Positions 12,135 to 32,191 of a stretch of 48,530 nucleotides of DNA are shown one piece after another (within the stretch, counting starts at the first letter, position 1; every line of letters starts with the position of its first letter). Origin of the DNA: Alphaproteobacteria bacterium (GTDB taxonomy: Bacteria > Pseudomonadota > Alphaproteobacteria > RF32 > CAG-239); assembly GCA_045111335.1 (NCBI GenBank), contig JBGUGE010000038.1:1-48530 (forward strand). Direction: 5' to 3'. Made by a program: the position numbers and the translations under genes. The notes beneath the pieces are model-generated. The model had not been told where the DNA came from. It did not search any database and was given only the letters and a program-made list of their open reading frames with translations.

Positions 12135-12270
12135 ATGGTCGTGTATATGGCACGTTTTTAAGGAAAGCCCCGGTTCCGAGCTCCCTTGGTCATAAAATGC
12201 GAACTCCCAGTCCGCTTGGTGTTTTTGAAAGAAAGCAACTATAAGTACTTGTATAGTCAACATGCCTAAC

Positions 12271-12303
12271 ACGTCAAAAACTGTCGCAATTTGCTCTTAT
12301 AAT
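12271..12303 (+). promoter_or_regulatory. WYL operator-promoter, copy 2 (points at the DnaB-like gene)
   Basis: ACGTCAAAAACTGTCGC-N10-TATAAT. Confidence 0.7.
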
Positions 12304-12343
12304 ATAACCATTTTGAACCAATTGTTTATTATGGGAGCAGAAA

Positions 12344-13306
12344 ATGACTGAGAATACCGTTGAGAATAATTTATCGGAAATTTTAAACGACTATCTGCAT
12401 GAACTTGATTTTAGGGTTCAACATCCCGATGCATTGATGGGAATTGCGACCGGATTTGACAACCTTGATAAGAGATTGGACGGTTTGTGCAATGGTGAGG
12501 TTATTTTAATCGGTGGTCGCCCGGCGATGGGGAAAACGGCTTTGGCCGCCAATTTGACTTATAATATTGCCGCCGGTTTTTATCTCAAACATCAGCAAAA
12601 TCCGTTAGATGATAAATGCGTTGTATATATCGGCTTGGAGCTTTCGCCGAAATTGTTTGCCAACAGGCTTCTTTCTTTACAGACAGCAATACCGACGTAT
12701 AAATTACGTTGTGGTGAGGATTTGGGAGAAAATTTTGATAAGATTTGCAAAGCCGAACGCACTTTTAGGGAATTACCGATTTATTATCTGGGCGATATAT
12801 TTGAGGTCGATGACATTGAAAAAGAGTTACAAAAGGTAGAAAAACAGGTCGGTTGCGTGATTATCGACTATCTGCAACTCTTGGGAGAGGAATATCAGAC
12901 AAAAGAAGATTACAGCTTAATCGTGTTACAACTTAAATCATTGGCTGTTAAACTCGGCATACCGATTGTGGTGCTTTCGCAGTTGAAACGTGAGTTGGAA
13001 AGCCGAGCCGATAAACACCCGCTTATGAGTGATATTCGCGGGATTATGCGCAATCAAAACGCGGCTGATAATGTCATATTTTTGTATCGCGAAAGCTTTT
13101 ATATTCAATTTGCGGAGCCAAGAACACGCAAGAAAGAATCCGATGATCAATATCAAAAACGTGTGCGGCAGTGGCAAAAACGTTGCGACGAAACAGAAAA
13201 CATTTGTGAAATTATCATCGCCCGCAATTCCGGTGGCTTTTGCGGCATAATTAAACTGCATTTTGATTGGGCCACCGGACTGTTTTGGGAGGAGAAAAGA
13301 GAATGA
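12344..13306 (+). CDS. DnaB-like helicase C-terminal domain protein (no N-terminal domain, degenerate motifs)
   Basis: TGFDNLD, Walker A GRPAMGKT, IIDYLQL, LSQLKR; SDLRESGSIEQDAD reads SDIRGIMRNQNAAD and KxRxG reads RNSGG. Confidence 0.85.
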   Translation: MTENTVENNLSEILNDYLHELDFRVQHPDALMGIATGFDNLDKRLDGLCNGEVILIGGRPAMGKTALAANLTYNIAAGFYLKHQQNPLDDKCVVYIGLELSPKLFANRLLSLQTAIPTYKLRCGEDLGENFDKICKAERTFRELPIYYLGDIFEVDDIEKELQKVEKQVGCVIIDYLQLLGEEYQTKEDYSLIVLQLKSLAVKLGIPIVVLSQLKRELESRADKHPLMSDIRGIMRNQNAADNVIFLYRESFYIQFAEPRTRKKESDDQYQKRVRQWQKRCDETENICEIIIARNSGGFCGIIKLHFDWATGLFWEEKRE

Positions 13307-13375
13307 CATTCTCTGCTCCGAAAGTAGGAATATGCTTCAATCCTTCATAACAAAGGATTGGATTTTATCCAATCC

Positions 13376-15286
13376 TCAATTATCATTATTACTTATAAGA
13401 CGAACTACATTTTCTCTCAGAATTTCTAACATTTCTCTGCCATGTTTTTTGTAGGCATTTTCTTTCCAATCTGCATTAGTAATTGTTTCATTAGACATTA
13501 TTCTTAATTTAAGGCTACCATTTTTTATTGTATCACCAAAACTCCCTTTTTTAGATTCAGGAGATAAGTTGGAAAACTTAGAATTTGTCCTACGTTGAAC
13601 TAAACACAAGTTTCCAAAATAATCCAATCCATCCTTGGGTGACCAACTTTCGAATGTTCCTTCTGACGGATGTTGCGGATACCAGTGCTCTACTGAATTC
13701 CTATACTCGAATGTAAAATTCTTATAATTTTCTTCCGCTTTTTTATACTTATTCCAAAGAAGATAATCCAGATAATTAAAGACAATATGAGGAGTATCAA
13801 CACCAGCATTAAAAGCTTCGGCCTTCAAATAATCTTCATCGCTTAAGTTACTATTATTATTGAAATAATCTTGATAAACAGCTTTTGCTATGTATTTTTC
13901 CAAAAAAGTCCCTACATCTACAATATTATTATTGTTATTGTACAACCATATCAATAATTCAGTAATCCAATGCATAATTTTGGGCGAGGTATAAGAAACA
14001 CGTAGACAAGCTTGAAGCATTAAGATTTGCTTATGTCTCTCGTCATATGTTTTTTCTCTTTCCCATAGATTTGCAAAACATGTGTTTTTGTAATACGCTT
14101 TCTTCTTGCTTTGTTGCCCACTGGAACATAAGCATTTTAAGCTCCAAACACCTTCTTCATCCGTACCGGAAGTTTCTCTTTTTATAATGTATTTATCAAA
14201 TAAATACCTGCAAGTCAGTAAGTAATTAATGAATTTCAGTGAAAAAACACGTTTTTGACCATTATAATATTTTTTTATTACAGCTTCAAATGTCTCAAAA
14301 AGCTTTTTATCGTCTAATAGACGCTTTGTATCACCATGAGATTTTATTTCTTGATTAAGAAAAACTTTTAAAACATGCATTAAAAAGTATGGCGCCTCAA
14401 TAATACTCCTAAATCTTTGACTACCATCATCATCTTCGCCGTAATTGTTTGCTTCTTGCAATTTTTGTATACTATCAAAATTTATAATATCTAATATTTT
14501 CTTTTTTTCTTTACCTGATTCCGCTCTTATAAATTTATTATACTCGTTTTTCGGCTTTTCAGTCCATGTTTCCCCAAAAATTGAAGCTCTGTACTCAGGT
14601 GTAAAATGCATTTGAATGTACCCATTCATATTAACACATGCATCCCAAATTAAAGCAAAAATATCTTTTTCATTATCATTTAAGCAATCCATTAAATGGG
14701 CTTTTAAAATATCTTGTTGTTCCAATTGTTCGCCACGCGTATTCATTATCTCAAAATAACGATTCAAATCAGTATGAGGAGGAACCTTTATTCTATATAT
14801 TTTTACTTTAGACAACTTTTCTTTAAATTTTTCCTTATCGTGTTTTTTAAAATATTCACTAATAATATCCCATCCTTTTATTATTCCCTCGTCTTTTTCT
14901 TTTAATAAATTATCTTGTGCCCCGATTGTATCCAACGTATTATCTGAGGTGGGGCGATATGCAAAGGTCAAATATTCACAATTTTTCCAATCAAGCAAAT
15001 ATTTTAGTACTAAAAATAAAGTTGTTAAACGTTGTTGACCGTCTATAACTTCATATTCATCATCTAATTTATAAACAATCAACGAGCCCAAACAATATGA
15101 TGAATCTGTATCGTCGGCGATTCCATCAATATCTTCCATAAGCTGATTAATTTCTTTGTCTTCCCAAGCAAATGCTCTTTGGTATAAAGGGATAATATAT
15201 CTGACATTTTCTGAAAATAGATTGTTTATATTATTAGGAGTATAAACTTTTAATTCTTCAATAAATGCTTCTCCGGTTTGCTTCAT
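13376..15286 (-). CDS. GmrSD-like DUF262 + DUF1524 (HNH) nuclease
   Basis: IPLYQRAFAW, VIDGQQRLTT, FEIMNTRG; C-terminal SVEHWYPQ...GNLCLV...NSKFSN. Confidence 0.9.
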   Translation of the reverse strand: MKQTGEAFIEELKVYTPNNINNLFSENVRYIIPLYQRAFAWEDKEINQLMEDIDGIADDTDSSYCLGSLIVYKLDDEYEVIDGQQRLTTLFLVLKYLLDWKNCEYLTFAYRPTSDNTLDTIGAQDNLLKEKDEGIIKGWDIISEYFKKHDKEKFKEKLSKVKIYRIKVPPHTDLNRYFEIMNTRGEQLEQQDILKAHLMDCLNDNEKDIFALIWDACVNMNGYIQMHFTPEYRASIFGETWTEKPKNEYNKFIRAESGKEKKKILDIINFDSIQKLQEANNYGEDDDGSQRFRSIIEAPYFLMHVLKVFLNQEIKSHGDTKRLLDDKKLFETFEAVIKKYYNGQKRVFSLKFINYLLTCRYLFDKYIIKRETSGTDEEGVWSLKCLCSSGQQSKKKAYYKNTCFANLWEREKTYDERHKQILMLQACLRVSYTSPKIMHWITELLIWLYNNNNNIVDVGTFLEKYIAKAVYQDYFNNNSNLSDEDYLKAEAFNAGVDTPHIVFNYLDYLLWNKYKKAEENYKNFTFEYRNSVEHWYPQHPSEGTFESWSPKDGLDYFGNLCLVQRRTNSKFSNLSPESKKGSFGDTIKNGSLKLRIMSNETITNADWKENAYKKHGREMLEILRENVVRLISNNDN

Positions 15287-16564
15287 TTAATTTATCTCCT
15301 TTATTTGTGTATATAATGTCTCCCACTTTTCTCGCTGAGCTTTACCTGAATCCCGTTGGATATTAACTACTAAATTTGCAATTTCTTTATGATTTAAGGC
15401 ATTCCTTATTATCGAAAAAATAGGAATATTATTGGTATACCTGCTTTCTGAACTATGGCACGTAGTATAAGCATTGATGCTTGAAAACGGTAATACTTCT
15501 AAATCTACACGTAGCATAAAAGCCCAAGAAAATAGATTTTTTATCGCTTGCTTATCCCAATTATGAAATTTATCATAATAACAGAGTACAGCACATTCAA
15601 ATAAGGTTTTAGCATGCATAAAACCAGTAGAATTTTTATATGGATCAATTACTTTTGATTTATCAACTCCTATCAATTGATAAGCCTCATATTTTACGTA
15701 CTCTAAAAGTGGTACATAATAATCTACCATTTCAAAAAAGTGTTTCCCAGCAATGAAAGGCTCGGTTATTTGGAATATATTCATTGATTTTGCAACTCTT
15801 TTTGCATAAGTATACGAGCTATTTATGGAAACACCTTTATAATAATCAATTTCTTTTGCCGTAAAAGCAGAAGCTTTCTCTTTTCTTGACCATTTTAATA
15901 TGGGAAATAAATAATTTTCAAAAAGATTACGTATATCAGCAGGTTTAATTGCTTCCCATTTTCTTACAGCATTACGCATCTCAAAAGGTTCCTGATTTAT
16001 TTCTCTTAAGTGATAGGCTTTTAATAAATCATGCGGATTAAGCAACTTTCCGCGAGTGTTTTGAGAATCAAACAACTGAAATGCTTCCGTTTCTTTATCA
16101 ACAACTAAAACAACAAATTCAAAAATATTTGTAAAAGCGTTAAGGAGTAAATCCTTCTTATCTTCATGGGTAGAAACCCAACTACGAATATAGTGATAAT
16201 TTTGATAGATGTTTGATTTACTGATATCAGATTCACATTTTTCTTCTAACAAAGGATATGATTGGTTATTATCCAGACAATACAACAATAAAGATAAAGA
16301 AATACATCTCTGTTGTCCATCTACTATATCGTATCTCCCTCTGTTATTGTGCAAAATAACTGAACCTATCCTATATTTAAAATCTTTATATTGAAAACTA
16401 TCCACCAAAGCTTGTTCAATATCTTCCAATAGCGTTGATACATTTTTTATTGTCCATTTGTAAGGACGTTGATAATTTGGTATGTGCAAAGATTTTTGCA
16501 ACAAATCAAAAACACTCAGAATCTGAGCATTTTCTTGGATTTGTTTCTTAATCTCCTCGCTCAT
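15287..16564 (-). CDS. DUF262 (GmrS-like) protein without an HNH domain
   Basis: IPNYQRPYKW, IVDGQQRC, FDSQNTRG; its stop abuts the next ATG (TAAATG). Confidence 0.88.
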   Translation of the reverse strand: MSEEIKKQIQENAQILSVFDLLQKSLHIPNYQRPYKWTIKNVSTLLEDIEQALVDSFQYKDFKYRIGSVILHNNRGRYDIVDGQQRCISLSLLLYCLDNNQSYPLLEEKCESDISKSNIYQNYHYIRSWVSTHEDKKDLLLNAFTNIFEFVVLVVDKETEAFQLFDSQNTRGKLLNPHDLLKAYHLREINQEPFEMRNAVRKWEAIKPADIRNLFENYLFPILKWSRKEKASAFTAKEIDYYKGVSINSSYTYAKRVAKSMNIFQITEPFIAGKHFFEMVDYYVPLLEYVKYEAYQLIGVDKSKVIDPYKNSTGFMHAKTLFECAVLCYYDKFHNWDKQAIKNLFSWAFMLRVDLEVLPFSSINAYTTCHSSESRYTNNIPIFSIIRNALNHKEIANLVVNIQRDSGKAQREKWETLYTQIKEIN

Positions 16565-16686
16565 TCCTAATTCTCCTTCTTGTTTGTACCACTATTAGTC
16601 ATTTCCTGATTCTTAAAGTTTATCCGATATTAACTTAAAGTCAACCGTGGATTTATATAAAAAAATTACACCATTTATTAAATTTT

Positions 16687-16719
16687 GTTATATATCGTAT
16701 ATACGACAATATTTGACGG
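16687..16719 (-). promoter_or_regulatory. WYL operator-promoter, copy 3 (points at the DUF262 pair; lies in the WYL gene leader)
   Basis: Minus strand CCGTCAAATATTGTCGT-N10-TATAAC. Confidence 0.7.
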
Positions 16720-16728
16720 AGATGGGAT

Positions 16729-17676
16729 ATGGCAAATTACGAAAAAATGTATGATTTGTTTGATTTGGCGATGGCAATGCAGGAATCCAGCGAGGGATTG
16801 TCGCTTGAGGATATTCAGCGTAAATACAACGTTTCACGCCGTACTGCCGAGCGTATGCGCGATGCGCTGTTGAACTATTTTCCGCAAATGGAGGAAGTGG
16901 CAACCGGCGAGCGCACCAAACGGTGGCGTATTACTCAGCGCAGTTTGAACAGTTTTATCTCGTTTTCCGCCGAAGAACTGGCCGTATTTAAAACCGCGAT
17001 TGATAGCTTAAAACAGGGAAATTTGCAAGAAAAAGCCGACACCCTGTCTAGGGTTGAAATAAAATTGCGTAATCTGTTAAAGCCGGAGCAAAAAAATAAA
17101 ATCGAGGTTGATGCCGACGAATTGATGAAAGCCGAGGGGCTGGTTTTGCGTCCGGGACCACGGATTGAGCTGGATAAAAATATTCTGAACACCCTGCGTC
17201 AGGCCATTCTTTCTTGTCATCACATCAAAATGGCATATGAAGCCAAAAATTCCGGCAAAAGTCATGTTTACAGGCTCGTTCCGTACGGTTTCTTATACGG
17301 TCAGCGCGATCATTATTTAGTGGCCAAGCACAGCGATGGCTATGATAACGGCAAAGCGCACAATTTCTCGTTGCAATGTATTAAAAGCGTAGAGATATTG
17401 CCAGATATTTTTGACAGTTCCGAATTTGATTTGCAGGCGTATGCTTTGGAATCCTTCGGAGCTTTTCACGAGGAGCCTTTTGATGTGGAGTGGTTGTTCA
17501 GTGCCAACGTTGCCAATGAAGCCGAAAACTTTATTTTCCATCCGAAGCAAAAATTAACCCGCAATCCGGATGGCACGCTGACGGTTAAATTCAGAGCCGG
17601 TGGCCGTCGTGAAATGGATTGGTTTTTATACACCTGGGGCGATGACGTCAAAGTCATCAAACCGAAACCGGAGTAA
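16729..17676 (+). CDS. wHTH-WYL-WCX transcriptional regulator (DriD/PafBC-like)
   Basis: N-terminal HTH (GLSLEDIQRKYNVSRRTAERMRDAL), WYL core (LVPYGFLYG.RDHYLVA), WCX (FHPKQ...EMDWFLYTWGDDVKVIKP). Confidence 0.92.
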   Translation: MANYEKMYDLFDLAMAMQESSEGLSLEDIQRKYNVSRRTAERMRDALLNYFPQMEEVATGERTKRWRITQRSLNSFISFSAEELAVFKTAIDSLKQGNLQEKADTLSRVEIKLRNLLKPEQKNKIEVDADELMKAEGLVLRPGPRIELDKNILNTLRQAILSCHHIKMAYEAKNSGKSHVYRLVPYGFLYGQRDHYLVAKHSDGYDNGKAHNFSLQCIKSVEILPDIFDSSEFDLQAYALESFGAFHEEPFDVEWLFSANVANEAENFIFHPKQKLTRNPDGTLTVKFRAGGRREMDWFLYTWGDDVKVIKPKPE

Positions 17677-17683
17677 AAATTTT

Positions 17684-18262
17684 TTAATTTAAAGGATTGT
17701 CCTGCAAAAATTTTTCAAGCATAGCAACATCTCGTTGGTAATCCTTGCGCTCTTTTTTGTTTTGAGCAATGTATTTAGCCTTAAATTCTAACCGTTGAAT
17801 TTCCAGTGGTATATATTTCAGCAGAACTTCCAGATGTTCAATATCTCCGACATTTTTAGCCCCTTTGCATACTAGGTAACACGCCTCATCAATATCTGCA
17901 AACAACATTGCTGTGCCTAAAATCGTGAGCTTCATTCCATCGACGGCGTCAATATCCATGTGACATTCATCTATCAAATAATCTATTAGCTTATGACCAC
18001 TACTATAAGCAAATGCCGTATGTAGCAAGGTAGAATCGGTTTGCGGATCAATAAAATCCAAAGAAGCTCCAAGCTCTAAAATACACTTAAAACACCCTAA
18101 ACGTCCGTTTCTTGCCGCATAGAATATAGCGTTTCTGCCTTTTTCATCTTTTTCGTTAATCAGGGATTTTATATCATCGGTTTCATCTAATATTTTTTTG
18201 AAAGCATCTACATCATTATCCAAGATTGCCCGATGCAGCGGTAAAAGTTTTTCTTCAGTCAT
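17684..18262 (-). CDS. Ankyrin-repeat protein
   Basis: PLHRAI, GRNAIFYAARNG, TLLHTA, DIDAVD repeats; start 18262 (or 18277) overlaps the upstream stop. Confidence 0.8.
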   Translation of the reverse strand: MTEEKLLPLHRAILDNDVDAFKKILDETDDIKSLINEKDEKGRNAIFYAARNGRLGCFKCILELGASLDFIDPQTDSTLLHTAFAYSSGHKLIDYLIDECHMDIDAVDGMKLTILGTAMLFADIDEACYLVCKGAKNVGDIEHLEVLLKYIPLEIQRLEFKAKYIAQNKKERKDYQRDVAMLEKFLQDNPLN

Positions 18263-18791
18263 TGTAAGTCCTTTCATTTATTGCGCAGGAGTTTTTCAGC
18301 CTTTTATAGACTTCGCATACATACAAAACATCCAAAAGTGCGCCATTGTAAGGCGAATGTTTGATTTTAATTTTGAGTCTCTCGCTCAAGGCACAAAGAT
18401 TATTTTTCTGCCCCGGAAATACTTTTCTCGCCATTTCCAAGGTATCGGTCACTTTGTTAGGCAGTTCAAAACCAACCTCATTATTGATAAAGTTCATGTC
18501 AAATTGCACATGATGCCCGATTATCTCTTTACCCTCAATAAAACGCAGAAATTCGTCTTTGTATGCGGCAAAAGTCGGAAAATTCTTCAGGAACTTATAA
18601 TCTAAGCCATGTATCGCCGTAACATCTCTTGATATCCGGCGCTCCGGATTGATATAGGCATGAAATATTACTCCGGTTTGCACATCGTTTTCATCAATTT
18701 CAATAGCGGCAATTTCCACAAGTTTATGACCATCTTTCGGAGAAAAACCGGTAACTTCCGTATTAATAATTACTTTTTTGTTATTGCTCAT
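18255..18791 (-). CDS. DnaQ/epsilon-like DEDDh exonuclease with substituted catalytic residues
   Basis: INTEVTG (for LDTETTG), EIAAIE, YINPER, IHGL, HHVQFDMNFI, DTLEMAR, NGALLD (for HGALLD). Confidence 0.85.
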   Translation of the reverse strand: MSNNKKVIINTEVTGFSPKDGHKLVEIAAIEIDENDVQTGVIFHAYINPERRISRDVTAIHGLDYKFLKNFPTFAAYKDEFLRFIEGKEIIGHHVQFDMNFINNEVGFELPNKVTDTLEMARKVFPGQKNNLCALSERLKIKIKHSPYNGALLDVLYVCEVYKRLKNSCAINERTYND

Positions 18792-19488
18792 TGTCCTTCT
18801 CCTCATAAAACCACAATTTCTGACAATCTTTCAGGTGTTCGGTATATTTCAAAGATGATGTGTTGGCGCGAACGTGGAAAGTTTTATCTCCCGGTTGTTT
18901 TATAACTTCAATATCTATCGGCTCTTTGTATCCGTTTACGGCTGACAGCTTGAAAGTCATATCCGCAGCGAGCAGAATGTCGGAAGAGTCCTTTTGCCAA
19001 CAAATAACCGGAACGTTAAGTATTTGCGCCGCATCTTTGAAAATCAAGGTCGCTTTATCCTCATCAACACCATATCTTAACTTGTATATCGGAGCGATAA
19101 TGGCAAGCAGTTTTTTATCCTTTAGGTGTTGAAATTTTTTTAAGTTTAGCCATGCGGAATAACTTCTCAGCAACAAATCAACGCCTTGTGTCGGGTCATC
19201 TTGTATAGGTAGTCCATGTCGTGTTAAAAGTTTGTTTTTCGAGATTCTGTCGTTAATCAGCGCATAATCAAAATCGGCAGGATTACTGTCAAAAATAGTG
19301 GAAGTAAGCGACGGAAAATCAAGCGTTCCCATCAGCACCACAAATCCGTCGTTATTGTCGGCAATGCTTTGTGTTAAACTGATTATAAATTGCTCGACTT
19401 GTATGCATTCTCCTTGTATCGTCGCCAAATCGCCGGCATGAAGACCGCCTAAATCCGTATCAATAAAAGAAAATCCGGTTTTTATCAT
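18781..19488 (-). CDS. Highly degenerate DnaB-C-like protein
   Basis: IKTGFSFIDTDLGGLHAGDLATIQG resembles the start of the DnaB ATPase domain; FKDAAQILNVPVI and AADM...IEVIKQ echo later motifs; no Walker A lysine. Confidence 0.55.
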   Translation of the reverse strand: MIKTGFSFIDTDLGGLHAGDLATIQGECIQVEQFIISLTQSIADNNDGFVVLMGTLDFPSLTSTIFDSNPADFDYALINDRISKNKLLTRHGLPIQDDPTQGVDLLLRSYSAWLNLKKFQHLKDKKLLAIIAPIYKLRYGVDEDKATLIFKDAAQILNVPVICWQKDSSDILLAADMTFKLSAVNGYKEPIDIEVIKQPGDKTFHVRANTSSLKYTEHLKDCQKLWFYEEKDNEQ

Positions 19489-19964
19489 TTTATTTTTTCC
19501 TCATCGATTTCCATAACTTTAATGCCCTCGGAATTAAATAAATCCACTTTTCCGGCCGTGTCTGACTTCATATAAACAAAGTTTTTATCAAATTTAATAA
19601 TGGTTTTTCCCGCTCCCCATGCCGGACAGCGCACATAATTTCCATTGTCCGAAACAATCGCTATCGGACCTTGCAAAGTGTATGGAAAAGTTGTGATTTC
19701 TCCCGAAACAAACATATCTTTGAGAGTGTTAATTGTTTGTTTTCTCGTTCGTTTGGCAGAAATTGTTTTGAGTTGCCGGAGCAAACTTTCGGCTTGACGT
19801 AATTGTTCGTTAATCCGACCAAGAGTTTCTTTATCTTGTTCGCTGATATGTAGCGCCGAAACATCATCTTTAATTTGTTGCACCATCGGCATAAAATCAT
19901 GGTAAAAGCCTTTAACTAATGAAGTCATCGCCTCCATTTTTACCTTGTATGTATCGTCTTGCAT
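19485..19964 (-). CDS. Hypothetical protein
   Basis: 159 aa, coiled-coil N-terminus; ATGA overlap with the next gene. Confidence 0.7.
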   Translation of the reverse strand: MQDDTYKVKMEAMTSLVKGFYHDFMPMVQQIKDDVSALHISEQDKETLGRINEQLRQAESLLRQLKTISAKRTRKQTINTLKDMFVSGEITTFPYTLQGPIAIVSDNGNYVRCPAWGAGKTIIKFDKNFVYMKSDTAGKVDLFNSEGIKVMEIDEEKIK

Positions 19965-19974
19965 AGATAACTTC

Positions 19975-20178
19975 TTAATATGGTTCGCTTTTTATAAAAT
20001 GTCCTTGTTCATCGAGAACGTGCCTATATTCTTCGTTGGCAATAATCACTATTTTTTCGCTGTCCCAATGTTCAAGCCGATAAGGTGCAGTCATCATGCC
20101 CGTGAGCATCAGCCCCATCCTACTTCCGTCTTTGACAATAGTTAAGCAGTCATCTTTAAGCGTCACATCTTCAATCAT
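19975..20178 (-). CDS. Small hypothetical protein, first gene of the putative WYL-controlled operon
   Basis: RBS AGGAG before ATG 20178. Confidence 0.65.
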   Translation of the reverse strand: MIEDVTLKDDCLTIVKDGSRMGLMLTGMMTAPYRLEHWDSEKIVIIANEEYRHVLDEQGHFIKSEPY

Positions 20179-20214
20179 TTTCGTCTCCTGTTGTTTGTTG
20201 AACTTTACGAAAAC

Positions 20215-20247
20215 AATTAAACATATAAACACGACAGATTATGACGT
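20215..20247 (-). promoter_or_regulatory. WYL operator-promoter, copy 4
   Basis: Minus strand ACGTCATAATCTGTCGT-N9/10-TTTAAT/TTAATT. Confidence 0.62.
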
Positions 20248-20282
20248 GTTGAAATATTTAGATACAAAATTAAGTGAGAAAA

Positions 20283-20732
20283 TTATAACTTTTTCACATA
20301 CACCCGAGTTGGTTTGCCCTCACGAGTGGTCATGGTCTGCCAAAAGGTAAAGCCGTATTTCTCGTAGAGGCCGACCTCGTCGGTGGAAATATAAACTTTT
20401 TCGGTGCCGGCGGATTTTAACGCTTCGCAAATGTGGGTGATTAACTTGCCGGCGTTGCGGTGGCCGCGGGAGGCCGGAAACGTATATACAAACCCAATCC
20501 ACGGCGACAGTTCCGGTGCGTCAATCTCGTCTTGCGGCGCCAAAGTGGCAAACGAAACCAGCTTATCACCGTCGGTCAGCATATAAACTTCGGTAGCATC
20601 GCCGCACATCTGCTTTAATTTGTCGCTCTCCAGCCAGTCGTGCAACAATTCCGCCGCCGACCAATCGCCTTTGCCGATTTCTTCCCTCCAATGTGCCTGA
20701 TTTTCCGTTTGATAATACTTTATTACCTGCAT
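20283..20732 (-). CDS. GNAT acetyltransferase
   Basis: PWIGFVYTFPASRGHRNAGKL...GLYEKYGF. Confidence 0.9.
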   Translation of the reverse strand: MQVIKYYQTENQAHWREEIGKGDWSAAELLHDWLESDKLKQMCGDATEVYMLTDGDKLVSFATLAPQDEIDAPELSPWIGFVYTFPASRGHRNAGKLITHICEALKSAGTEKVYISTDEVGLYEKYGFTFWQTMTTREGKPTRVYVKKL

Positions 20733-20957
20733 TTTGTCTCATACTTCATAGTTGCGATATTTGCAAACTATAAACCTTTAAATATAACTTGCCAAGTACA
20801 TAGTTCATAGTTTTGAAATTTTAAAACTATGAAGTTATAGGATATAAAAAATATTCGGCGACCGGACTTAAATAATGTAGATATTCGGGAATTTTTCTTG
20901 ACTTTTCGGGAATTATTCGGTAACATTTCGGTAAAGATTATAACAAAGGATATTAAA

Positions 20958-22016
20958 ATGCCGAATATGACAGATATTACAATTACGCCGGATATGCTAA
21001 AGAAAATAGCAGAAATCGACGCTTTTAACGGGGCGTTTAATAGTGGCGGTATAAAGATTAGGCCTGATAAATTAAAAGCCATGAAGCGCATTGCGACGAT
21101 TGAATCTATCGGCTCATCAAATCGTATTGAGGGCAATAAGCTAAATGATACTGAGGTTGAAACTGTCTTTAATCATATCAACAAAAAGTCATTTCAAACG
21201 CGCGATGAGCAAGAAGTCGCCGGCTATGCCGATTTGCTTTCAACGATTTTTGAGAATTATAAAGAAATCAATCTGTCCGAGAATTATATTCGGCAGTTGC
21301 ATAAAATCTTGCTTTCGTATTCAGACAAAGACGAGCGTCATCGCGGCGAATATAAAAAAGATTCAAATCGCGTGGTAGCCTTTGATGCAAATGGTAATGA
21401 AATCGGCACAATTTTTGAAACAGCAACACCTTTTGATACGCCGCACTTAATGCAGGAATTAGTGGACTGGACGAACATTAATTTTAAGGACGGCTATTTT
21501 CACCCGATTATCACAATCGGCGTGTTTGTCGTGCATTTTTTATCAATACACCCTTTTACAGACGGCAACGGCAGGCTTTCGCGTGCTTTAACGACAATGC
21601 TTATGCTACAAAACGGCTATAATTATATGCCTTACGCTTCAATGGAATCTATCATTGAGGCTAGCAAAGACGCATATTACAGAGCTCTGCGCGCTACGCA
21701 AAAGACAATCTGGAGCGATAAGGTAAATTATGAGCCGTGGCTGACGTTCTTTATTACCTCGCTTGCCAAGCAAAAGCGCCATTTAGAAGATAAAATTGCT
21801 TTAGCTTTGAAATCGGACACAACAAGAATAAGCAAAGCCGAGCAAGCCGTTTTAGACCTCTTTGAAGAAAAAACAAATTGGTCTGTTTCAGAAATGGCAG
21901 AAGCTTTAGACAAAAACAGCGAGACCGTCAAAAAGACCGTGCAAAATCTCGTCAAGAAAGACCTGCTCGAGAAACAAGGCTCGACCAAAGGAACATACTA
22001 TATTTTGAAGAGGTAA
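20958..22016 (+). CDS. Fic family protein with C-terminal winged HTH
   Basis: HPFTDGNGRLSR Fic motif; SNRIEGN inhibitory-type motif; C-terminal LVKKDLLEKQGSTKGTYY. Confidence 0.92.
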   Translation: MPNMTDITITPDMLKKIAEIDAFNGAFNSGGIKIRPDKLKAMKRIATIESIGSSNRIEGNKLNDTEVETVFNHINKKSFQTRDEQEVAGYADLLSTIFENYKEINLSENYIRQLHKILLSYSDKDERHRGEYKKDSNRVVAFDANGNEIGTIFETATPFDTPHLMQELVDWTNINFKDGYFHPIITIGVFVVHFLSIHPFTDGNGRLSRALTTMLMLQNGYNYMPYASMESIIEASKDAYYRALRATQKTIWSDKVNYEPWLTFFITSLAKQKRHLEDKIALALKSDTTRISKAEQAVLDLFEEKTNWSVSEMAEALDKNSETVKKTVQNLVKKDLLEKQGSTKGTYYILKR

Positions 22017-22017
22017 A

Positions 22018-23175
22018 ATGCGTCAGCACGTTATAGCTTTGGTTGATTGTGACTGCTTTTTCGTTTCATGCGAACGGAAGGATAATCCCGATTTGCAAGG
22101 CAAGCCTGTGTGCGTGATGACCGGCGGCGGTTCAAAAGGCATTATCGTCTCCCGCTCAAAGGAAGCTAAGGCGCTGGGGATTAAAATGGGCCAGCCGTAT
22201 TTTCAGGTTAAGCCGAACTTCCCGACTGCAATTTGTATTCCGGCTCGCCACCACCGCTATACCGAGATTTCGAAAGAAGTTATGGACACGATTAAGACTT
22301 TTAGTCCGGATGTCGAAGTAACCTCGGTTGATGAGGCATTTGTTGATTTGACCAGCCTCAACAAGGTTTATCATTCCACCTATACCGACATCATCAAAAA
22401 TATCCGGCAAACGGTGTGGGACAAGGTCGGTATTCCCGTTTCCATCGGCTTGGGAACTTCCAAAACGCTGGCAAAACTGGCAAGCGATAAGGCAAAAATG
22501 AGCGGCGGGATATTTGTGATCCCGCCGGATAAAATCTTGGATATTGTGGGCGAAATGCCGATTGAGGACGTTAGCGGTATCGGGCGCAAAAACAGCGAGC
22601 ACATGAAGTTCAGCGGGATTTTTACGATTAAGGACTTTGTGGAGAAAGAAAACGGCTGGATTAGAAAAGCTTTCGGAATTAACGGCTTAAATCTCAAAAG
22701 CGAGCTGACCGGTGTTGCGACATCTTTGGTTAACAACGAACCCACCGCCCCGCAGAGCATACAGGTAACGCGGAGTTTTGAGGACTTCACGCAAAGTTTG
22801 GAATATTTGGAACACGAATTAAATCGGCATGTTCATGAGGCATGTCAGAAGCTCAGGCGGTGGAACGGCTTTTGCCAAGGGGTGGAAGTTATGCTCCGCA
22901 CCAAAGATTTCAAATATCTCGCTGTTGAGGCAAAATTGCCGAACCCGACCAATGGCGACCAAGAAGTGCGCATGACCGCCATAAACCTCTTGAAACAACT
23001 CTACCGCCCGAATTTAATTTACCGCTCAACCGGCGTAACACTCAAAAATCTGACCTATGGCGAAGTTCAACAGTCGCTGTTTGAGGAAGTAAAGCCCCAC
23101 GACGACAAACTCTCGCATTTAGTGGACGAGCTTGAAGCCAAATTCGGCAAAGGGATTGTTAAAACCGGGGTGTGA
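22018..23175 (+). CDS. Y-family DNA polymerase (DinB/UmuC-like)
   Basis: LVDCDCFFVSCE, SKEAKALGIKMG, SVDEAFVD, KTLAKLAS; clamp-binding-like QQSLF. Confidence 0.92.
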   Translation: MRQHVIALVDCDCFFVSCERKDNPDLQGKPVCVMTGGGSKGIIVSRSKEAKALGIKMGQPYFQVKPNFPTAICIPARHHRYTEISKEVMDTIKTFSPDVEVTSVDEAFVDLTSLNKVYHSTYTDIIKNIRQTVWDKVGIPVSIGLGTSKTLAKLASDKAKMSGGIFVIPPDKILDIVGEMPIEDVSGIGRKNSEHMKFSGIFTIKDFVEKENGWIRKAFGINGLNLKSELTGVATSLVNNEPTAPQSIQVTRSFEDFTQSLEYLEHELNRHVHEACQKLRRWNGFCQGVEVMLRTKDFKYLAVEAKLPNPTNGDQEVRMTAINLLKQLYRPNLIYRSTGVTLKNLTYGEVQQSLFEEVKPHDDKLSHLVDELEAKFGKGIVKTGV

Positions 23176-23204
23176 AAAATAAATCCCCGTAACCAGCATA
23201 TTTC

Positions 23205-23262
23205 ACTGGACTTCTTTGTTTTTCCAAGCATTCATTGGGTTGTAACGAAAGGAACAGCCATG
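23205..23262 (+). promoter_or_regulatory. Element-specific promoter/leader shared with the DUF2924 gene
   Basis: ACTGGACTTCT-N9-CAAGCATTCATTG...GAAAGGAA...GCCATG, also at 35524-35578 on the minus strand. Confidence 0.7.
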
Positions 23263-23565
23263 AAAACAGTTAAAATTTATATGGTCCGGAAGCCCTCAGA
23301 CATCGACGAAGTAACAGAGTTATGCCAGCGTTATGTCGCACAGGCCGAAGAAGTGGTGGTAGCGGAAACGGTTGAATTACCGGCCGTTTGGTATGATGCG
23401 GTTTGTCTATTCCCGCTAGATGATTACATTTTCCTATCCGGCAAAGGTGGCTATGACGACGAAAACCACCGCCAAGTAGTTGAATTAAAATGCGCCGGTC
23501 GGCCGACACTTTATGTGGATCCGTCCGGGTCGAGTTACTGCCGATATATGGGAGTTGAGCCATGA
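23260..23565 (+). CDS. Small mobile-element protein (DUF6329-like)
   Basis: C-terminal LYVDPSGSSYCRYMG resembles the family motif (from memory); good RBS. Confidence 0.6.
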   Translation: MKTVKIYMVRKPSDIDEVTELCQRYVAQAEEVVVAETVELPAVWYDAVCLFPLDDYIFLSGKGGYDDENHRQVVELKCAGRPTLYVDPSGSSYCRYMGVEP

Positions 23566-23795
23566 AAATGAAGCGATACGAAGAAATTGAGCCGAGCAAC
23601 CGGACAACTTTCCGGATGTTGTATTATAACGCCGGTCGTACTCTCACTCAAATTGAAACCCTGTTAAAGTTGGTCTACGGGAATCCACTACCGATAAAGT
23701 CGCAGGACCGATTGTTCCGCATAAGACACAAGCTGGAACAAATGGTCGCCCGGTACAAACAATGCGAGAGTGAATTAAGGGAAAAGAAACTTTAA
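23562..23795 (+). CDS. Hypothetical protein
   Basis: ATGA overlap with the previous gene. Confidence 0.55.
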   Translation: MKMKRYEEIEPSNRTTFRMLYYNAGRTLTQIETLLKLVYGNPLPIKSQDRLFRIRHKLEQMVARYKQCESELREKKL

Positions 23796-23886
23796 TAAAT
23801 ACAAAAAAAATTAATCAGAAATCTTGCGATTAAAGTCATTAAAACCTAAATACTAAGTATGTTTAATATAACTTAAAGGGGCATAA

Positions 23887-25440
23887 ATGGCTAAAATCTA
23901 TCTAGATGCACTTATTCAACGAGACGACTTTGAAGCAATTTCTGAGGGCATGACCGAACAACTGAATAAATCAACAGTTAATATTTCTGATTTAACTACA
24001 GATGCTTTCTTCTATCACATCATCAGGAAGCCAGACTTTCAAAGAGAAACAAATGAATGGGATGCTCAAACGGTTGCTGATTTTGTTGAAAGTTTTATAA
24101 AGGGTGATTTAATTCCTGCTATAATTTTTTGGAAATCACCGTCAGGTAATTGTTTTGTTATTGACGGAGCGCATCGTTTAAGTGCTCTTATTGCTTGGAT
24201 TAATGATGATTATGGTGATGGTATATTGTCTAAAAGTTTCTATGAAAATATTCCAGAAACACAACTTAGAGAAGCAGAAAGAGCGCGCAAAATTATAAAT
24301 CAAACGATTGGTAGTTATTCTGATTTAAGAAAAATTATAGCTAATCCAGCGGCATACCCTAGTGAAACTCAAAAAATTATATATGCAAAAAGAATAGGTA
24401 CAGCCGGTTTTCAAGTTCAGTGGGTAACAGGTGATGCAAAAACAGCTGAAGATTCTTTCTTCAAAATAAATCAAAAAGCAGTACCTATTGATAAAACAGA
24501 AATTAAATTATTAAGATCTAGGAAAAAGCCAAACTGTATTGCCGCAAGAGCAATTATAAGAGGCGGCAAAGGACACAAATATTGGGAAAATTTTTCGAAA
24601 GAAAATCAAGATTCAATTTCACAACTTGCTGAAAGCATTAATTCTTTACTTTTTCATCCTTTATTAAAAAGTCCAATAAAAACTTTAGATTTGCCTATTG
24701 CGGGTAAGAGTTTATCAGGACAAACTCTTCCTTTAGTGTTGGATATAGTAAATATGACTAATAATATAACATCATCTAATGACTTATATAATATAGATGA
24801 CGATATAGATGGGACATCTACTATTAAAATTTTAAGAGAAACGCAAAAAATTATACAATTAATTAATAGTAATGCACCGTCATCTTTAGGACTTCACCCT
24901 GCTGTTTATTTTTATTCTGCAGATGGCAGACATAAAGTTACATCATTCTATGCTATTGTAGCGTTAGTTTTGTATCTAAAAGAACATAATAAATTAAATT
25001 GGTTTACGGAAAAAAGAGCCGAATTTGAACAATTTTTGATTGATTATGGATATTTAACACAGCAAATGGGGCGCAAATATAGAGAATCTTCAAAAGCTTA
25101 CAATCCGATGAGAGATTTTTATTTGTTTGTGCTGGAAAAATTTCACGAGTATACATCTTTTAACGATGTTGTTAATAAAGTTATTGAAAAATATGATTTT
25201 TTAACATTACAAACTCCGAATCAAGAGTCAACCGGTGGTAAATTTTCTGAAAATACAAAATCTGCAGCATTTTTAAGAACTGCAATGCAAGGAGCTGTAA
25301 AATGTGGTATTTGTGGCGGATATATCCACACTAATTCTGTCAGCTTTGATCATATTCAAAGAAAACAAGATGGTGGGGCTAAAAATATTGACAACTGCCA
25401 GATCACTCATCCTTATTGCAATACTGGTTATAAAAATTAG
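23887..25440 (+). CDS. DUF262 + C-terminal HNH endonuclease
   Basis: KPDFQRETNEW, FVIDGAHRLSAL, FFKINQ; CGICGG...DHIQRKQDGG...NCQITHPYCN. Confidence 0.88.
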   Translation: MAKIYLDALIQRDDFEAISEGMTEQLNKSTVNISDLTTDAFFYHIIRKPDFQRETNEWDAQTVADFVESFIKGDLIPAIIFWKSPSGNCFVIDGAHRLSALIAWINDDYGDGILSKSFYENIPETQLREAERARKIINQTIGSYSDLRKIIANPAAYPSETQKIIYAKRIGTAGFQVQWVTGDAKTAEDSFFKINQKAVPIDKTEIKLLRSRKKPNCIAARAIIRGGKGHKYWENFSKENQDSISQLAESINSLLFHPLLKSPIKTLDLPIAGKSLSGQTLPLVLDIVNMTNNITSSNDLYNIDDDIDGTSTIKILRETQKIIQLINSNAPSSLGLHPAVYFYSADGRHKVTSFYAIVALVLYLKEHNKLNWFTEKRAEFEQFLIDYGYLTQQMGRKYRESSKAYNPMRDFYLFVLEKFHEYTSFNDVVNKVIEKYDFLTLQTPNQESTGGKFSENTKSAAFLRTAMQGAVKCGICGGYIHTNSVSFDHIQRKQDGGAKNIDNCQITHPYCNTGYKN

Positions 25441-25506
25441 CAAATATTAAAGGTGATAAACATAATATTGAGCGATAAATTTACAGAAAAAAAACATAAA
25501 ATCTGC

Positions 25507-25971: not shown

Positions 25972-26120
25972 AAAAACACCTGAACTAATATATATATCGT
26001 CCCTATTATAACTATATAGTATAAAAATCAATGATATTTGATAATTGATAAAAAGGATTGCATTAAAATTTTTTACTACCTATATATGTATTATATCATA
26101 ATGTAACCGGAACTTAGTTT

Positions 26121-27806: not shown

Positions 27807-27847
27807 AGAGGCAAATTTATATTTAAATTGCTTAGGGGACTAATAAA

Positions 27848-30244: not shown

Positions 30245-30250
30245 TATACA

Positions 30251-31294: not shown

Positions 31295-31387
31295 GATATA
31301 CCTCTTTCCTCTTTGTCTCAAAGTATAAAATGAAAATATAAAGAATCAATAAAATTATTATTTATATTAATGGTAAATTTGTTTATT

Positions 31388-32084: not shown

Positions 32085-32191
32085 ATTTTCTGCCGGCGAT
32101 GAATATGTTGTATCAAAAGTTTTTTCTTTTTGACATCTCGCATTTTGCGGTGATAATTAAAGCAATTGTTATTTTTTAAAGGAGATAAAAA

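What the first reader, a model, noticed from the sequence alone, without database searches (positions are those of the whole stretch)
12344..20178. WYL-linked set of disabled replisome look-alikes (two DnaB-C, one DnaQ) plus an ankyrin protein
Seen: DnaB-C 12344 lacks the N-terminal domain, the ESGSIEQDAD motif and the KxR arginine finger; 18781 is a Walker-A-less DnaB-like fold; DnaQ 18255 has ExoI D-to-N and ExoIII H-to-N and no alpha-binding tail. All are intact ORFs with RBS or translational coupling behind WYL boxes. Inference: maintained pseudoenzymes acting as decoys or sensors for phage replication proteins (helicase loaders or inhibitors), as dominant-negative replication brakes, or as helper-phage interference factors. 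I know of no described system with this combination.
Basis: partly seen in the sequence, partly recalled or inferred. Interest (0 to 1): 0.83.

Follow-up and report, generated by a model that had tools for sequence, protein, structure and literature searches.

The report
DriD-controlled dead replisome look-alikes on island
A mobile defence island in a rumen bacterium carries a DNA-damage/single-strand-DNA sensor switch that appears to control a conserved set of crippled copies of replication proteins, whose job is unknown but is probably to interfere with replicating DNA.

Summary
12344-13306 is an N-domain-less DnaB_C that keeps the P-loop but has lost the arginine finger and the RESG DNA loop. 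18781-19488 (p235) is a Walker-less RecA/DnaB fold. 18255-18806 is a tail-less DnaQ with ExoI D->N and ExoIII H->N. An ankyrin gene follows. The losses hold across the families (ExoIII His in 0 of 96 relatives; Arg finger in 5 of 96) and dN/dS is 0.09-0.30.

New here:
- The WYL gene is a full-length homologue of Caulobacter DriD (E 2e-53), an ssDNA-activated activator.
- DriD-type boxes (CGTC-N7-GTCG; 4 exact hits, 0.01 expected) lie 11 nt before a -10-like hexamer at the DnaB_C and nuclease promoters. A third lies 54 nt before the ATG of the p67-p159-p235-DnaQ*-Ank operon.
- All this lies on a ~24.6 kb defence island at tRNA-Pro, which two relatives lack.
- Conserved backbone genes flank slots with varying cargo.

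Best reading: an ssDNA-induced regulon of non-catalytic replisome paralogues plus nucleases that targets replicating DNA. The regulon is well supported. The function is inferred.

The parts
12142..36712 (.). Genomic island of about 24.6 kb at tRNA-Pro; the ends are approximate
   Evidence: In the island-free relatives G054 and G047, the sequence matching window 12047-12141 directly abuts (overlapping by about 43 bp) the sequence matching window 36678-38420. A serine recombinase and a tRNA lie at the right end.
12272..12286 (+). DriD-type box CGTCAAAAACTGTCG, 11 nt upstream of a TATAAT hexamer and 58 nt upstream of the DnaB_C ATG
   Evidence: A box stands at the same position before DnaB_C in L005, L008 and L010.
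12344..13306 (+). Accessory DnaB_C paralogue (320 aa). It has no N-terminal domain. The P-loop, Walker B, catalytic Glu and SQL Gln are kept. The Arg finger and the RESG DNA loop are lost.
   Evidence: The genome's true DnaB is on contig C44.
13376..15286 (-). GmrSD-type nuclease (GmrSD_N + GmrSD_C), second gene of the operon divergent from the WYL gene. This is variable cargo.
   Evidence: The same pair occurs at 99% identity in L010; other nucleases fill this slot in L004, L005 and L008.
15287..16564 (-). GmrSD_N + DUF7834 protein, first gene of the divergent operon
16704..16718 (-). DriD-type box in the bidirectional WYL/nuclease promoter. It lies 10 nt before the WYL ATG. On the minus strand it is followed after 11 nt by TATAAC, so it is oriented toward the nuclease operon.
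   Evidence: A conserved counterpart is present in L010, L002, L004, L005, L007 and L012.
16729..17676 (+). DriD homologue (wHTH-WYL-WCX transcription factor, 315 aa)
   Evidence: Pfam WYL + WCX. phmmer against PDB 8tp8/9pfq (C. crescentus DriD) gives E 2e-53 over residues 4-313, and the recognition helix RRTAERMRDA is identical. dN/dS is 0.03-0.055.
17684..18277 (-). Ankyrin-repeat protein (197 aa), last gene of the operon
   Evidence: An ankyrin protein of 135-516 aa follows DnaQ* or DnaB_C in L002, L005, L007, L008, L009, L010 and L011.
18255..18806 (-). DnaQ-like pseudo-exonuclease (183 aa): NEDDn in place of DEDDh, with no C-terminal tail
18781..19488 (-). p235: RecA/DnaB-fold protein without Walker A or Walker B
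19485..19964 (-). p159: a helical hairpin (residues 1-75) plus a small beta domain (about 83 aa). It is split into two genes in some loci.
19975..20178 (-). p67, first small gene of the operon. The ATG at 20178 has a GGAG-type ribosome-binding site. ORF-listing runs the ORF from a GTG at 20232.
   Evidence: It is 96-98% identical in L005 and L010.
20232..20246 (-). DriD-type box CGTCATAATCTGTCG, 54 nt upstream of the p67 ATG
   Evidence: The same site is present in L005 and L010, and variants stand before p159-type genes in L001, L002, L004, L007, L008 and L012.
20283..20732 (-). GNAT acetyltransferase, a conserved neighbour upstream of the operon
33390..35601 (-). Large serine recombinase (33390-35105) with its DUF2924 partner (35107-35601) at the island's right end
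36713..36789 (-). tRNA-Pro (TGG), the integration target

Best explanation
What is shown.
- The finding lies on a genomic island of about 24.6 kb at tRNA-Pro in a small-genome (1.63 Mb) rumen alphaproteobacterium.
- The island's WYL gene is a full-length homologue of Caulobacter DriD.
- Boxes fitting the published DriD motif stand upstream of three island promoters: the DnaB_C paralogue, the divergent GmrSD-type nuclease pair, and the p67-p159-p235-DnaQ*-Ank operon. At the first two, the box lies 11 nt before a -10-like hexamer, which puts it over the -35 position.
- The look-alikes are conserved under purifying selection. DnaQ* lacks the general-base His. p235 has no ATPase motifs. DnaB_C keeps its nucleotide-binding residues but lacks the trans Arg finger, the DNA-binding loop and the N-terminal domain.

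What is inferred.
- When ssDNA accumulates (phage, plasmid or island replication, or DNA damage), the DriD-like activator switches on all three units.
- The look-alikes then act without catalysis. They would form a complex that binds forks, ssDNA or 3' ends, or that binds replisome proteins. The ankyrin protein would be its variable protein-binding subunit. The complex would stall or flag replicating DNA.
- The co-induced nucleases (GmrSD here; PD-(D/E)XK or DUF2779 in relatives) would do the cutting.
- In short, this is read as an ssDNA-triggered, replication-targeting defence or abortive module carried as the backbone of a defence island.
For: Regulator.
- phmmer of the WYL protein against PDB hits DriD (8tp8, 9pfq) at E 2e-53 over residues 4-313. 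The recognition helix is identical, including the Arg that the DriD paper says reads the conserved G.

Boxes.
- There are 4 exact hits against 0.01 expected.
- They fit the paper's motif CGXC(X)7GXCG with an AT-rich gap (PMC10853764, passages).
- The box lies 11 nt before a -10-like hexamer at DnaB_C and on the nuclease side. DriD sites overlap the -35 position, and the bidirectional driD promoter activates the divergent operon (PMC13004042, passages).
- The box positions recur in relatives.

Module.
- Twelve related loci show the genes together in two gene orders.
- Fusions exist: p235+RNase_T (P0034) and Ank+Sigma70_r4+p235 (P0079).
- In the type-B loci a PD-(D/E)XK nuclease heads the same operon. 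In L030 the order is PD-(D/E)XK-like (by BLAST to the L001/L002 proteins), p82, p77, DnaQ*, GmrSD-type.

Pseudoenzymes under selection.

Accessory and mobile.
- p235 is in 12 of 50 genomes of the genus.
- The flanks are joined in G054 and G047.
- The cargo includes SoFic (E 1.3e-49), an AriA/GajA-like ATPase, a type II restriction enzyme with a C5 methylase, and GmrSD types.

Paralogues, not housekeeping copies.
- The true DnaB is elsewhere in the genome.
- A canonical dnaQ scoring above the family cut-off was found in 15 of 18 other genomes of the genus sampled.
Against: - No function was tested. Nothing shows that the WYL protein binds these boxes or senses ssDNA. Of the 7 DriD ssDNA-contact residues named in PMC9186387, 3 are identical and 1 is conservatively replaced in my reading of the alignment.
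- The -10 element of the p67 promoter is poor and its spacing to the box is less clear.
- Backbone genes that stay fixed while cargo varies are what one expects of an element's own life-cycle genes rather than of a defence system.
- DnaB_C and p235 co-occur in only 6 of the 12 p235-positive and 6 of the 11 DnaB_C-positive genomes of the genus.
- DnaQ* occurs without p235 in L030. A related Ank-DnaQ-like pair sits beside a phage terminase in L031, which hints at a phage origin or a phage use.
- None of the four look-alikes matches a PADLOC system model convincingly.
- A conserved Tyr or Phe precedes the lost His (91 of 97), so some altered catalysis cannot be excluded.
Confidence: 0.42

Rival explanations
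1. Island life-cycle module. The look-alikes are backbone genes that serve the island itself. After ssDNA-triggered induction and excision by the serine recombinase, the motor-dead DnaB_C and p235 would act as adaptors that capture the host DnaB or its loader, and DnaQ* would capture polymerase or clamp. This would replicate or stabilise the excised island, as satellites and PICI-like elements hijack replication.
For: The genes are conserved and fixed in position while the cargo between them changes. The island has a recombinase with DUF2924 and a tRNA target. A repeat-rich non-coding stretch at 35659-36290, with 3-5 copies, could be an origin or a recombination-control region. DnaB_C keeps the linker region and its nucleotide-binding residues.
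Against: No initiator, primase, polymerase or relaxase was found on the island. Replication genes of mobile elements are normally catalytically active. The module also occurs in other contexts without an obvious island, as in L001 next to a glycogen phosphorylase and in L003. The G007 copy matched only part of the recombinase region at the DNA level.
Confidence: 0.2
2. DNA-damage tolerance or recombination mediator. The proteins would be the cargo of a DriD-type damage response, working like Rad51 paralogues, the Shu complex or ImuA. In that reading, non-catalytic RecA-fold proteins and a 3'-end-binding DnaQ* protect or remodel stalled forks for repair or translesion synthesis.
For: DriD in Caulobacter controls damage-response genes: recA, recJ, dnaG, bapE and didA (PMC10853764 and PMC9186387, passages). 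p235 resembles RAD51 paralogues, RadA and KaiC by fold and by language-model features. An apparently active Y-family polymerase lies 2 kb away on the island, with its Asp/Glu motifs present. In L001 a DEDDh-intact DnaQ-like gene has a perfect palindromic box in front of it.
Against: The distribution within one genus is patchy: 12 of 50 genomes, with many 99-100% complete genomes lacking it. The neighbours are defence genes. The polymerase is not consistently linked; it is absent from L008 and L010.
Confidence: 0.15
3. Decoy or guard. The look-alikes would mimic DnaB and DnaQ so that phage proteins attacking the host replisome (helicase loaders or inhibitors) bind them instead. This would either protect the replisome or trigger the nucleases.
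For: The fold and surface-forming parts are kept while catalysis is lost. Ankyrin partners and p235 alleles are strongly diversified between loci: p235 is 63-66% identical where the neighbouring DnaQ* is 73-88% identical in L007-L011. This is what one would expect under an arms race.
Against: No phage partner is known. p235 is only distantly DnaB-like (TMq 0.60; hhalign probability 18% over 26 residues), which makes it a poor mimic. DnaQ* lacks the parts of epsilon that contact the polymerase and the clamp. Induction only after ssDNA appears would be late for a decoy.
Confidence: 0.12
4. Plain decay. The genes would be dying duplicates of dnaB and dnaQ with no function.
For: Catalytic residues are missing.
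Against: The frames are intact in the relatives. dN/dS is 0.09-0.30 at dS of 0.3-2.4. The same substitutions recur across 96-97 cluster representatives, while other catalytic and structural residues stay invariant. Synteny and promoter boxes are conserved.
Confidence: 0.02

Closest known systems
DriD regulon of Caulobacter crescentus (WYL-domain, ssDNA-activated, SOS-independent damage response)
   Same: The regulator is homologous over its full length and has an identical recognition helix. The box fits CGXC(X)7GXCG with an AT-rich gap. The box sits at the -35 position at a fixed distance from the -10 element, and the driD promoter is bidirectional with a divergent target. A nuclease is among the targets; bapE is a DriD target in Caulobacter.
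   Different: Here the regulator sits on a mobile, patchily distributed island and not in the core genome. The targets are different genes: dead replisome paralogues and GmrSD-type nucleases rather than didA, recA, recJ or dnaG. Nothing has been tested experimentally.
BrxR / CapW: WYL regulators of defence islands
   Same: They are wHTH-WYL-WCX regulators next to anti-phage genes. CapW senses ssDNA (PMC11662680; search listing and abstract only).
   Different: Those are described as repressors. At E <= 0.01 the window's protein matched only 5 PDB sequences. 8tp8 and 9pfq are named as DriD structures in the passages read, and 7tzv as the DriD-DNA starting model. 9cu3 and 7u02 are titled only 'WYL domain-containing protein'. 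The box position fits activation.
Replicative helicase DnaB and core-only relatives
   Same: The DnaB_C paralogue has the RecA-type core with Walker A, Walker B, the catalytic Glu and the Gln, and it keeps the linker region.
   Different: It has no N-terminal domain, no Arg finger and no RESG loop, and it scores below every NCBIfam DnaB cut-off.
DNA polymerase III epsilon (DnaQ)
   Same: It has the DEDDh fold, with E 1.6e-30 to 1j53. ExoI Glu, ExoII Asp and ExoIII Asp are kept.
   Different: The general-base His is never present. ExoI Asp is often replaced. There is no C-terminal segment. It scores below the TIGR01406 cut-off (154 against 222.7 bits).
Non-catalytic RecA-fold mediators (Rad51 paralogues, Shu complex, ImuA). 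The comparison is recalled knowledge.
   Same: p235 is a RecA-fold protein without ATPase motifs, with RAD51C/XRCC3/BCDX2 chains among its fold hits. It stands next to damage-response elements.
   Different: There is no sequence relationship beyond the fold. Its partners are different. No recombinase or DnaE2-type polymerase is linked to it.

Membership tests
DnaB replicative helicase (TIGR00665 / PF00772+PF03796) | N-terminal DnaB domain (primase-binding collar) | tested here: not met
   Pfam finds DnaB_C only, and the protein is 320 aa. The alignment with the genome's own 494-aa DnaB starts at the linker.
DnaB replicative helicase (TIGR00665 / PF00772+PF03796) | Walker A, Walker B, catalytic Glu and H3 Gln | tested here: met
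   GKT, IIDY, GLEL and SQL are present. In the family: Lys 96 of 96, Asp 96 of 96, Glu/Asp 91 of 96, Gln 95 of 96.
DnaB replicative helicase (TIGR00665 / PF00772+PF03796) | Trans arginine finger (KxR) and the RESG DNA-binding loop | tested here: not met
   The finger Arg is Ser and RESG is RGIM. Arg is present in 5 of 96 and the loop Glu in 3 of 96 N-domain-less relatives. All 15 full-length DnaBs are canonical.
DnaB replicative helicase (TIGR00665 / PF00772+PF03796) | Score above the curated family cut-off | tested here: not met
   193.6 bits against 385.25 for TIGR00665. It is below the cut-off for all 15 DnaB equivalog models.
DNA polymerase III epsilon / DEDDh exonuclease | DEDDh catalytic pentad | tested here: not met
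   The pentad reads N-E-D-N-D in the window. His is present in 0 of 96 short-family representatives and ExoI Asp in 23 of 90.
DNA polymerase III epsilon / DEDDh exonuclease | C-terminal segment that binds the polymerase subunit. Its role is recalled knowledge. | tested here: not met
   The protein ends about 60 residues before the canonical DnaQs of relatives. It scores 154 bits against the 222.7-bit cut-off of TIGR01406.
DNA polymerase III epsilon / DEDDh exonuclease | RNase_T/DnaQ fold | tested here: met
   PF00929 at E 1.8e-24 and 1j53 at E 1.6e-30.
DriD-type WYL transcription activator | wHTH-WYL-WCX architecture and full-length homology to DriD | tested here: met
   Pfam WYL + WCX. 8tp8 at E 2.1e-53 over residues 4-313.
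DriD-type WYL transcription activator | CGXC(X)7GXCG boxes with an AT-rich gap, one of them in its own bidirectional promoter | tested here: met
   with the motif definition from PMC10853764.
DriD-type WYL transcription activator | ssDNA binding in the WYL pocket, and activation of transcription | not testable with these tools
   Of the 7 named contact residues, 3 are identical and 1 is conservatively replaced, in my reading of the alignment.
Integrative genomic island | Absent from relatives with the flanks joined; a recombinase; a tRNA target | tested here: met
   G054 and G047 join window ~12141 to ~36678. Serine recombinase with DUF2924. tRNA-Pro. The exact crossover point was not resolved.
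Known anti-phage defence system (PADLOC models) | Component proteins match the models of one described system | tested here: not met
   p235 and p159 have no hit. DnaB_C has only weak hits (E 6.5e-4). DnaQ* hits a generic DEDDh model and PDC-S48. Ank hits PDC-M72A at E 5e-5. No single system covers the set.

The most novel reading that the evidence does not exclude
A new kind of inducible immunity or interference system. In it, a DriD-type ssDNA sensor turns on a set of catalytically dead replisome paralogues: a fingerless but nucleotide-binding DnaB core, a motif-less RecA/DnaB fold, a His-less DnaQ and a variable ankyrin adaptor. These would poison, cap or flag replication forks of invading DNA, or of the cell, and hand them to co-induced nucleases. 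The backbone would double as an expression platform into which different nucleases are swapped.
Probability: 0.3. Interest if true: 0.82.

Novelty: new variant of a known kind. Interest (0 to 1): 0.63.

Why it matters
WYL regulators that sense ssDNA are known from core damage responses (DriD, PafBC) and as switches beside defence systems (CapW, BrxR).

This locus would link the two. It has a DriD-type activator on a mobile defence island, and its conserved targets are non-catalytic copies of the replicative helicase and the proofreading exonuclease.

If the look-alikes act on forks or on replisome proteins, they would be a natural example of pseudoenzymes used to control or sabotage replication. 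They would also be a source of small proteins that bind bacterial replisome parts.

The fixed backbone with exchangeable nuclease slots is a tractable case of how defence islands are wired to one damage signal.

Every step is testable with ordinary genetics in laboratory strains.

Tried and rejected
- Complex prediction (DnaQ* + p159 + p235, with p235 as partner). The result was 'no answer' (score 0.01 against a mark of 0.32). I do not count it for or against binding.
- Profile of p235 against PDB sequences. It gave only chance-level hits (E 0.088 and 0.31).
- hhalign of the p235 alignment against DnaB_C. It aligned only 26 N-terminal residues, at probability 18%. The DnaB-like call for p235 therefore rests on the fold, on two weak profile hits to DnaB_C proteins (E 8e-4 and 9e-4) and on language-model features.
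- p159. Foldseek found nothing at E <= 0.001; the best rows were propeller-blade fragments. The Atlas gave a weak HisKA-like lead sharing 141 features. Its fold remains unassigned.
- p235 against phage records (tblastn): no match.
- DnaB_C against phage records. The best hit, H1/L029, is a 492-aa full-length DnaB on a record labelled as a phage and has no module neighbours, so I dropped it.
- ImuA/ImuB-type mutasome. I rejected this as a direct match because the neighbouring Y-family polymerase keeps its catalytic acidic motifs and is not consistently linked.
- Idea that DnaQ* is the cell's only dnaQ. No canonical dnaQ was found in G000. But G000 is 92% complete, and 15 of 18 other genomes of the genus sampled have a hit above the family cut-off. 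I read the absence as an assembly gap.
- Sequencing runs: no RNA holder was listed. I did not lay reads.
- Rfam scan: only the tRNA.
- Literature. Searches for WYL + DnaB + DnaQ + ankyrin, for DnaB-like + WYL + defense, and for inactive exonuclease / DnaQ / pseudoenzyme / phage found no paper describing this set. That is the whole basis for saying I found it undescribed.
Table S4 and Figure S8 of PMC10853764, and Figure S1 of PMC13004042, could bear on box spacing and on DriD homologues on mobile elements.

Full report
**What is there.** Between 12.3 and 20.7 kb the window encodes the following genes:
- a 320-aa protein with only the DnaB C-terminal domain (12344-13306, +);
- a pair of GmrSD-type genes on the minus strand (GmrSD_N + DUF7834 at 15287-16564; GmrSD_N + GmrSD_C at 13376-15286);
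- a WYL + WCX regulator (16729-17676, +);
- a tightly overlapping minus-strand operon: p67 (20178-19975), p159 (19964-19485), p235 (19488-18781), a DnaQ-like protein (18806-18255) and an ankyrin protein (18277-17684);
- a GNAT gene upstream of the operon.

- I aligned DnaB_C with the genome's own 494-aa DnaB (contig C44) and with solved DnaBs. The accessory protein starts at the linker and keeps GKT, IIDY, the catalytic Glu and the SQL Gln. It reads RGIMRNQNAAD where DnaB has RESGSIEQDAD, and ARNS where DnaB has GKQR / AKQR.
- The DnaQ-like protein aligns to E. coli epsilon at E 1.6e-30. It has Asn at the first ExoI Asp and Asn at the ExoIII His, and it stops about 60 residues short of canonical DnaQs.
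- p235 matches no family library. Its AF2 model (pLDDT 75, pTM 0.81) is a RecA-type fold. The best Foldseek hits are DnaB C-terminal domains (2r6a, E 8e-9, TMq 0.60), then RadA, RAD51 paralogues and KaiC. It has no Walker A or Walker B motif.

**The losses are conserved, not decay.**
- Among 97 cluster representatives of the short DnaQ-like family, none of the 96 with a residue at the ExoIII position has His (Asn 83, Ser 5, Lys 4, others 4).
- In the same set, ExoI Asp is kept in 23 of 90 (Asn 33, Thr 19, Gln 14, Glu 1). ExoI Glu is kept in 90 of 90, ExoII Asp in 96 of 97 and ExoIII Asp in 88 of 93. All 23 canonical-like hits from the same search are DEDDh.
- Among 96 N-domain-less DnaB_C relatives, Walker A Lys and Walker B Asp are invariant. 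The finger Arg is present in 5 and the loop Glu in 3. All 15 full-length DnaBs in the same search are canonical.
- Pairwise dN/dS against the window is 0.09-0.14 for DnaQ*, 0.16-0.23 for DnaB_C, 0.10-0.30 for p235, 0.09-0.30 for p159 and 0.03-0.055 for the WYL gene, where dS could be estimated.
- DnaQ* and p235 therefore look like true pseudoenzymes. DnaB_C* looks like a nucleotide-binding protein that has lost its motor features.

**The genes belong together.**
- p235 has only 72 relatives in the 5.8-billion-protein set and 21 representatives in the 1.84-billion set, nearly all from rumen or gut metagenomes.
- Twelve loci from rumen alphaproteobacterial MAGs show two arrangements.
- Type A occurs in the window and in L004, L005, L008, L009, L010 and L011. 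The order is (GNAT-p67)-p159-p235-DnaQ*, then a slot, then the WYL gene on the other strand, then a second slot, then DnaB_C* on the other strand.
- Type B occurs in L002, L007 and L012 (L012 appears to continue in L006). The WYL gene is divergent from one operon: PD-(D/E)XK nuclease, p110, p137, p83, p235, (DnaQ*), a DnaB_C-like gene and a long ankyrin protein.
- An ankyrin protein of 135-516 aa follows DnaQ* or DnaB_C in L002, L005, L007, L008, L009, L010 and L011. It is very divergent in sequence.
- The slot divergent from the WYL gene holds nuclease-type genes: the GmrSD pair (window, L010), a GmrSD_N protein plus DUF2779 (L008), an unassigned protein plus DUF2779 (L004), or PD-(D/E)XK (L005).
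- Natural fusions join p235 to the RNase_T domain (P0034, 407 aa), and join Ank + Sigma70_r4 to p235 (P0079, 509 aa).
- Linkage is not obligatory. In 50 genomes of the genus, p235 is in 12 (one weak hit), the accessory DnaB_C in 11 and both in 6.
- In L030 the order is a PD-(D/E)XK-like gene (assigned by BLAST to the L001/L002 proteins), p82, p77, DnaQ* and a GmrSD-type gene, without p235.
- L001 and L003 have p235 without an adjacent DnaQ*.

**The regulator is a DriD homologue.**
- The WYL protein matches solved C. crescentus DriD (8tp8, 9pfq) at E 2e-53 over residues 4-313. Its recognition helix is identical.
- 8tp8 and 9pfq are named as DriD structures in the passages of PMC10853764 and PMC13004042 that I read.
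- Those passages give the DriD consensus as ATACGAC(X)7GTCGTAT, with a general motif CGXC(X)7GXCG and an AT-rich gap. They state that an Arg in the helix reads the conserved G.
- They also state that DriD sites overlap the -35 position at a fixed distance from the -10 element, and that the bidirectional driD promoter drives the divergent operon rather than driD itself.

**The boxes.**
- CGTCANNNNNTGTCG occurs 4 times exactly in the window, against 0.01 expected.
- One box is at 12272-12286, 11 nt before a TATAAT hexamer and 58 nt before the DnaB_C ATG.
- One is at 16704-16718, 10 nt before the WYL ATG. On the other strand it lies 11 nt before TATAAC, facing the nuclease pair.
- One is at 20232-20246, 54 nt before the p67 ATG.
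- One is at 3673-3687, outside the island, in a promoter about 60 nt of which resembles the DnaB_C promoter.
- The same or variant boxes stand at the same three kinds of places in L001, L002, L004, L005, L007, L008, L010 and L012.
- I infer that the look-alikes and the nucleases form one regulon switched on by ssDNA. Binding and induction have not been tested.

**The context is a mobile defence island.**
- In the island-free relatives G054 and G047, DNA matching window 12047-12141 abuts DNA matching 36678-38420. About 24.6 kb is therefore an insertion at tRNA-Pro (36713-36789).
- A large serine recombinase and a DUF2924 gene lie at the right end.
- The island also carries a SoFic-like Fic gene (E 1.3e-49) with a Y-family polymerase, a GmrSD_N-HNH gene, an AriA/GajA/AbiLi-like ATPase, and a FokI-type restriction enzyme with a C5 methylase.
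- The WYL gene itself is accessory: related copies are in 30 of 50 genomes of the genus, in several identity classes.

**Mechanism.**
- Shown: the anatomy, the conservation, the regulator homology and the boxes.
- Inferred: ssDNA from replicating foreign DNA or from damage activates the DriD-like protein. The induced look-alikes act by binding forks, 3' ends or replisome proteins, not by catalysis. The ankyrin protein would be the variable adaptor and the co-induced nucleases the executioners.
- I put this at about 0.4.
- The main rival, at 0.2, is that these are the island's own life-cycle genes that capture the host replisome. That rival fits their fixed backbone position.
Plain decay is excluded.

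**Novelty.** The regulator type and defence islands are known. My three literature searches found no description of this set of dead replisome paralogues under such a switch. PADLOC has no system model that covers it.

**Limits.**
- All relatives are metagenome-assembled genomes.
- Kin are not independent samples.
- The box-to-promoter reading rests on -10-like hexamers, not on mapped transcription starts.
- Supplements of the DriD papers were closed.

Noticed in passing
window 3673-3687 (+), with 4014-10012: A fourth exact DriD-type box sits outside the island, in a promoter whose ~60 nt resemble the DnaB_C promoter. It lies upstream of a 153-aa ORF and a 366-aa Tlde1/YkuD-like protein. These are followed by at least four paralogous 114-aa ORFs (6950, 7371, 7799, 9668), which look like a toxin with an immunity-gene array downstream of a ShlB/FhaC-type transporter.
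   Followed up: partly
window 11574-11894 versus 36501-36731: A 98-nt repeat (84% identical) and a 27-nt copy of the tRNA-Pro 3' end (93% identical) lie just left of the island. They look like the scar of an earlier element, suggesting tandem islands at the same tRNA. The island-free relatives also carry the fragment.
   Followed up: partly
window 35659-36290: A non-coding stretch between the DUF2924 gene and the last island ORF holds 3 copies of a ~90-nt unit and 5 copies of a ~51-nt unit, spaced 121-146 nt apart. Each unit contains a short palindrome. This could be an origin, recombination-control sites or repeated promoters.
   Followed up: no
L031 (G013:C167) 5812-9804: An ankyrin protein (126 aa) followed directly by a DnaQ-like protein sits next to a phage large terminase and an HNH endonuclease. 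The DnaQ-like protein has an intact ExoI motif but Arg at the ExoIII His and Asn at the ExoIII Asp. The Ank + crippled-DnaQ pair therefore also occurs in a phage-like context.
   Followed up: partly
L001 3236-3916: A 207-aa DnaQ-like gene with all DEDDh residues intact has a perfectly palindromic DriD-type box directly upstream and lies 6 kb from a p100-p83-p235 cluster. It may be an active relative of DnaQ* under the same control.
   Followed up: no
whole genome G000: No canonical dnaQ and no other RNase_T-family gene was found in this 92%-complete assembly. By contrast, 15 of 18 other genomes of the genus sampled have a ~240-aa dnaQ scoring above the family cut-off. I read this as an assembly gap, but it is unproven.
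   Followed up: partly
window 31389-31459: Three tandem 23-bp repeats (GTGACTTTTTCGTTCGGCAAATT) lie just upstream of the C5 methylase / FokI-type restriction pair. They may be a control site of the restriction-modification system.
   Followed up: no
p235 alleles across loci: p235 falls into two allele classes relative to the window: 79-83% identical in L001-L006 and L012, and 63-66% in L007-L011. The flanking DnaQ* genes are 73-88% identical in the second group, and their full-length p159 genes are 86-94% identical. This indicates recombination within the operon.
   Followed up: no
window 20743-20835: A 33-nt imperfect inverted repeat (79% complementary, 27-nt spacer) lies in the GNAT/Fic divergent intergenic region and has no DriD-type box. 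It is probably a separate operator for the SoFic-like Fic + polymerase operon.
   Followed up: no
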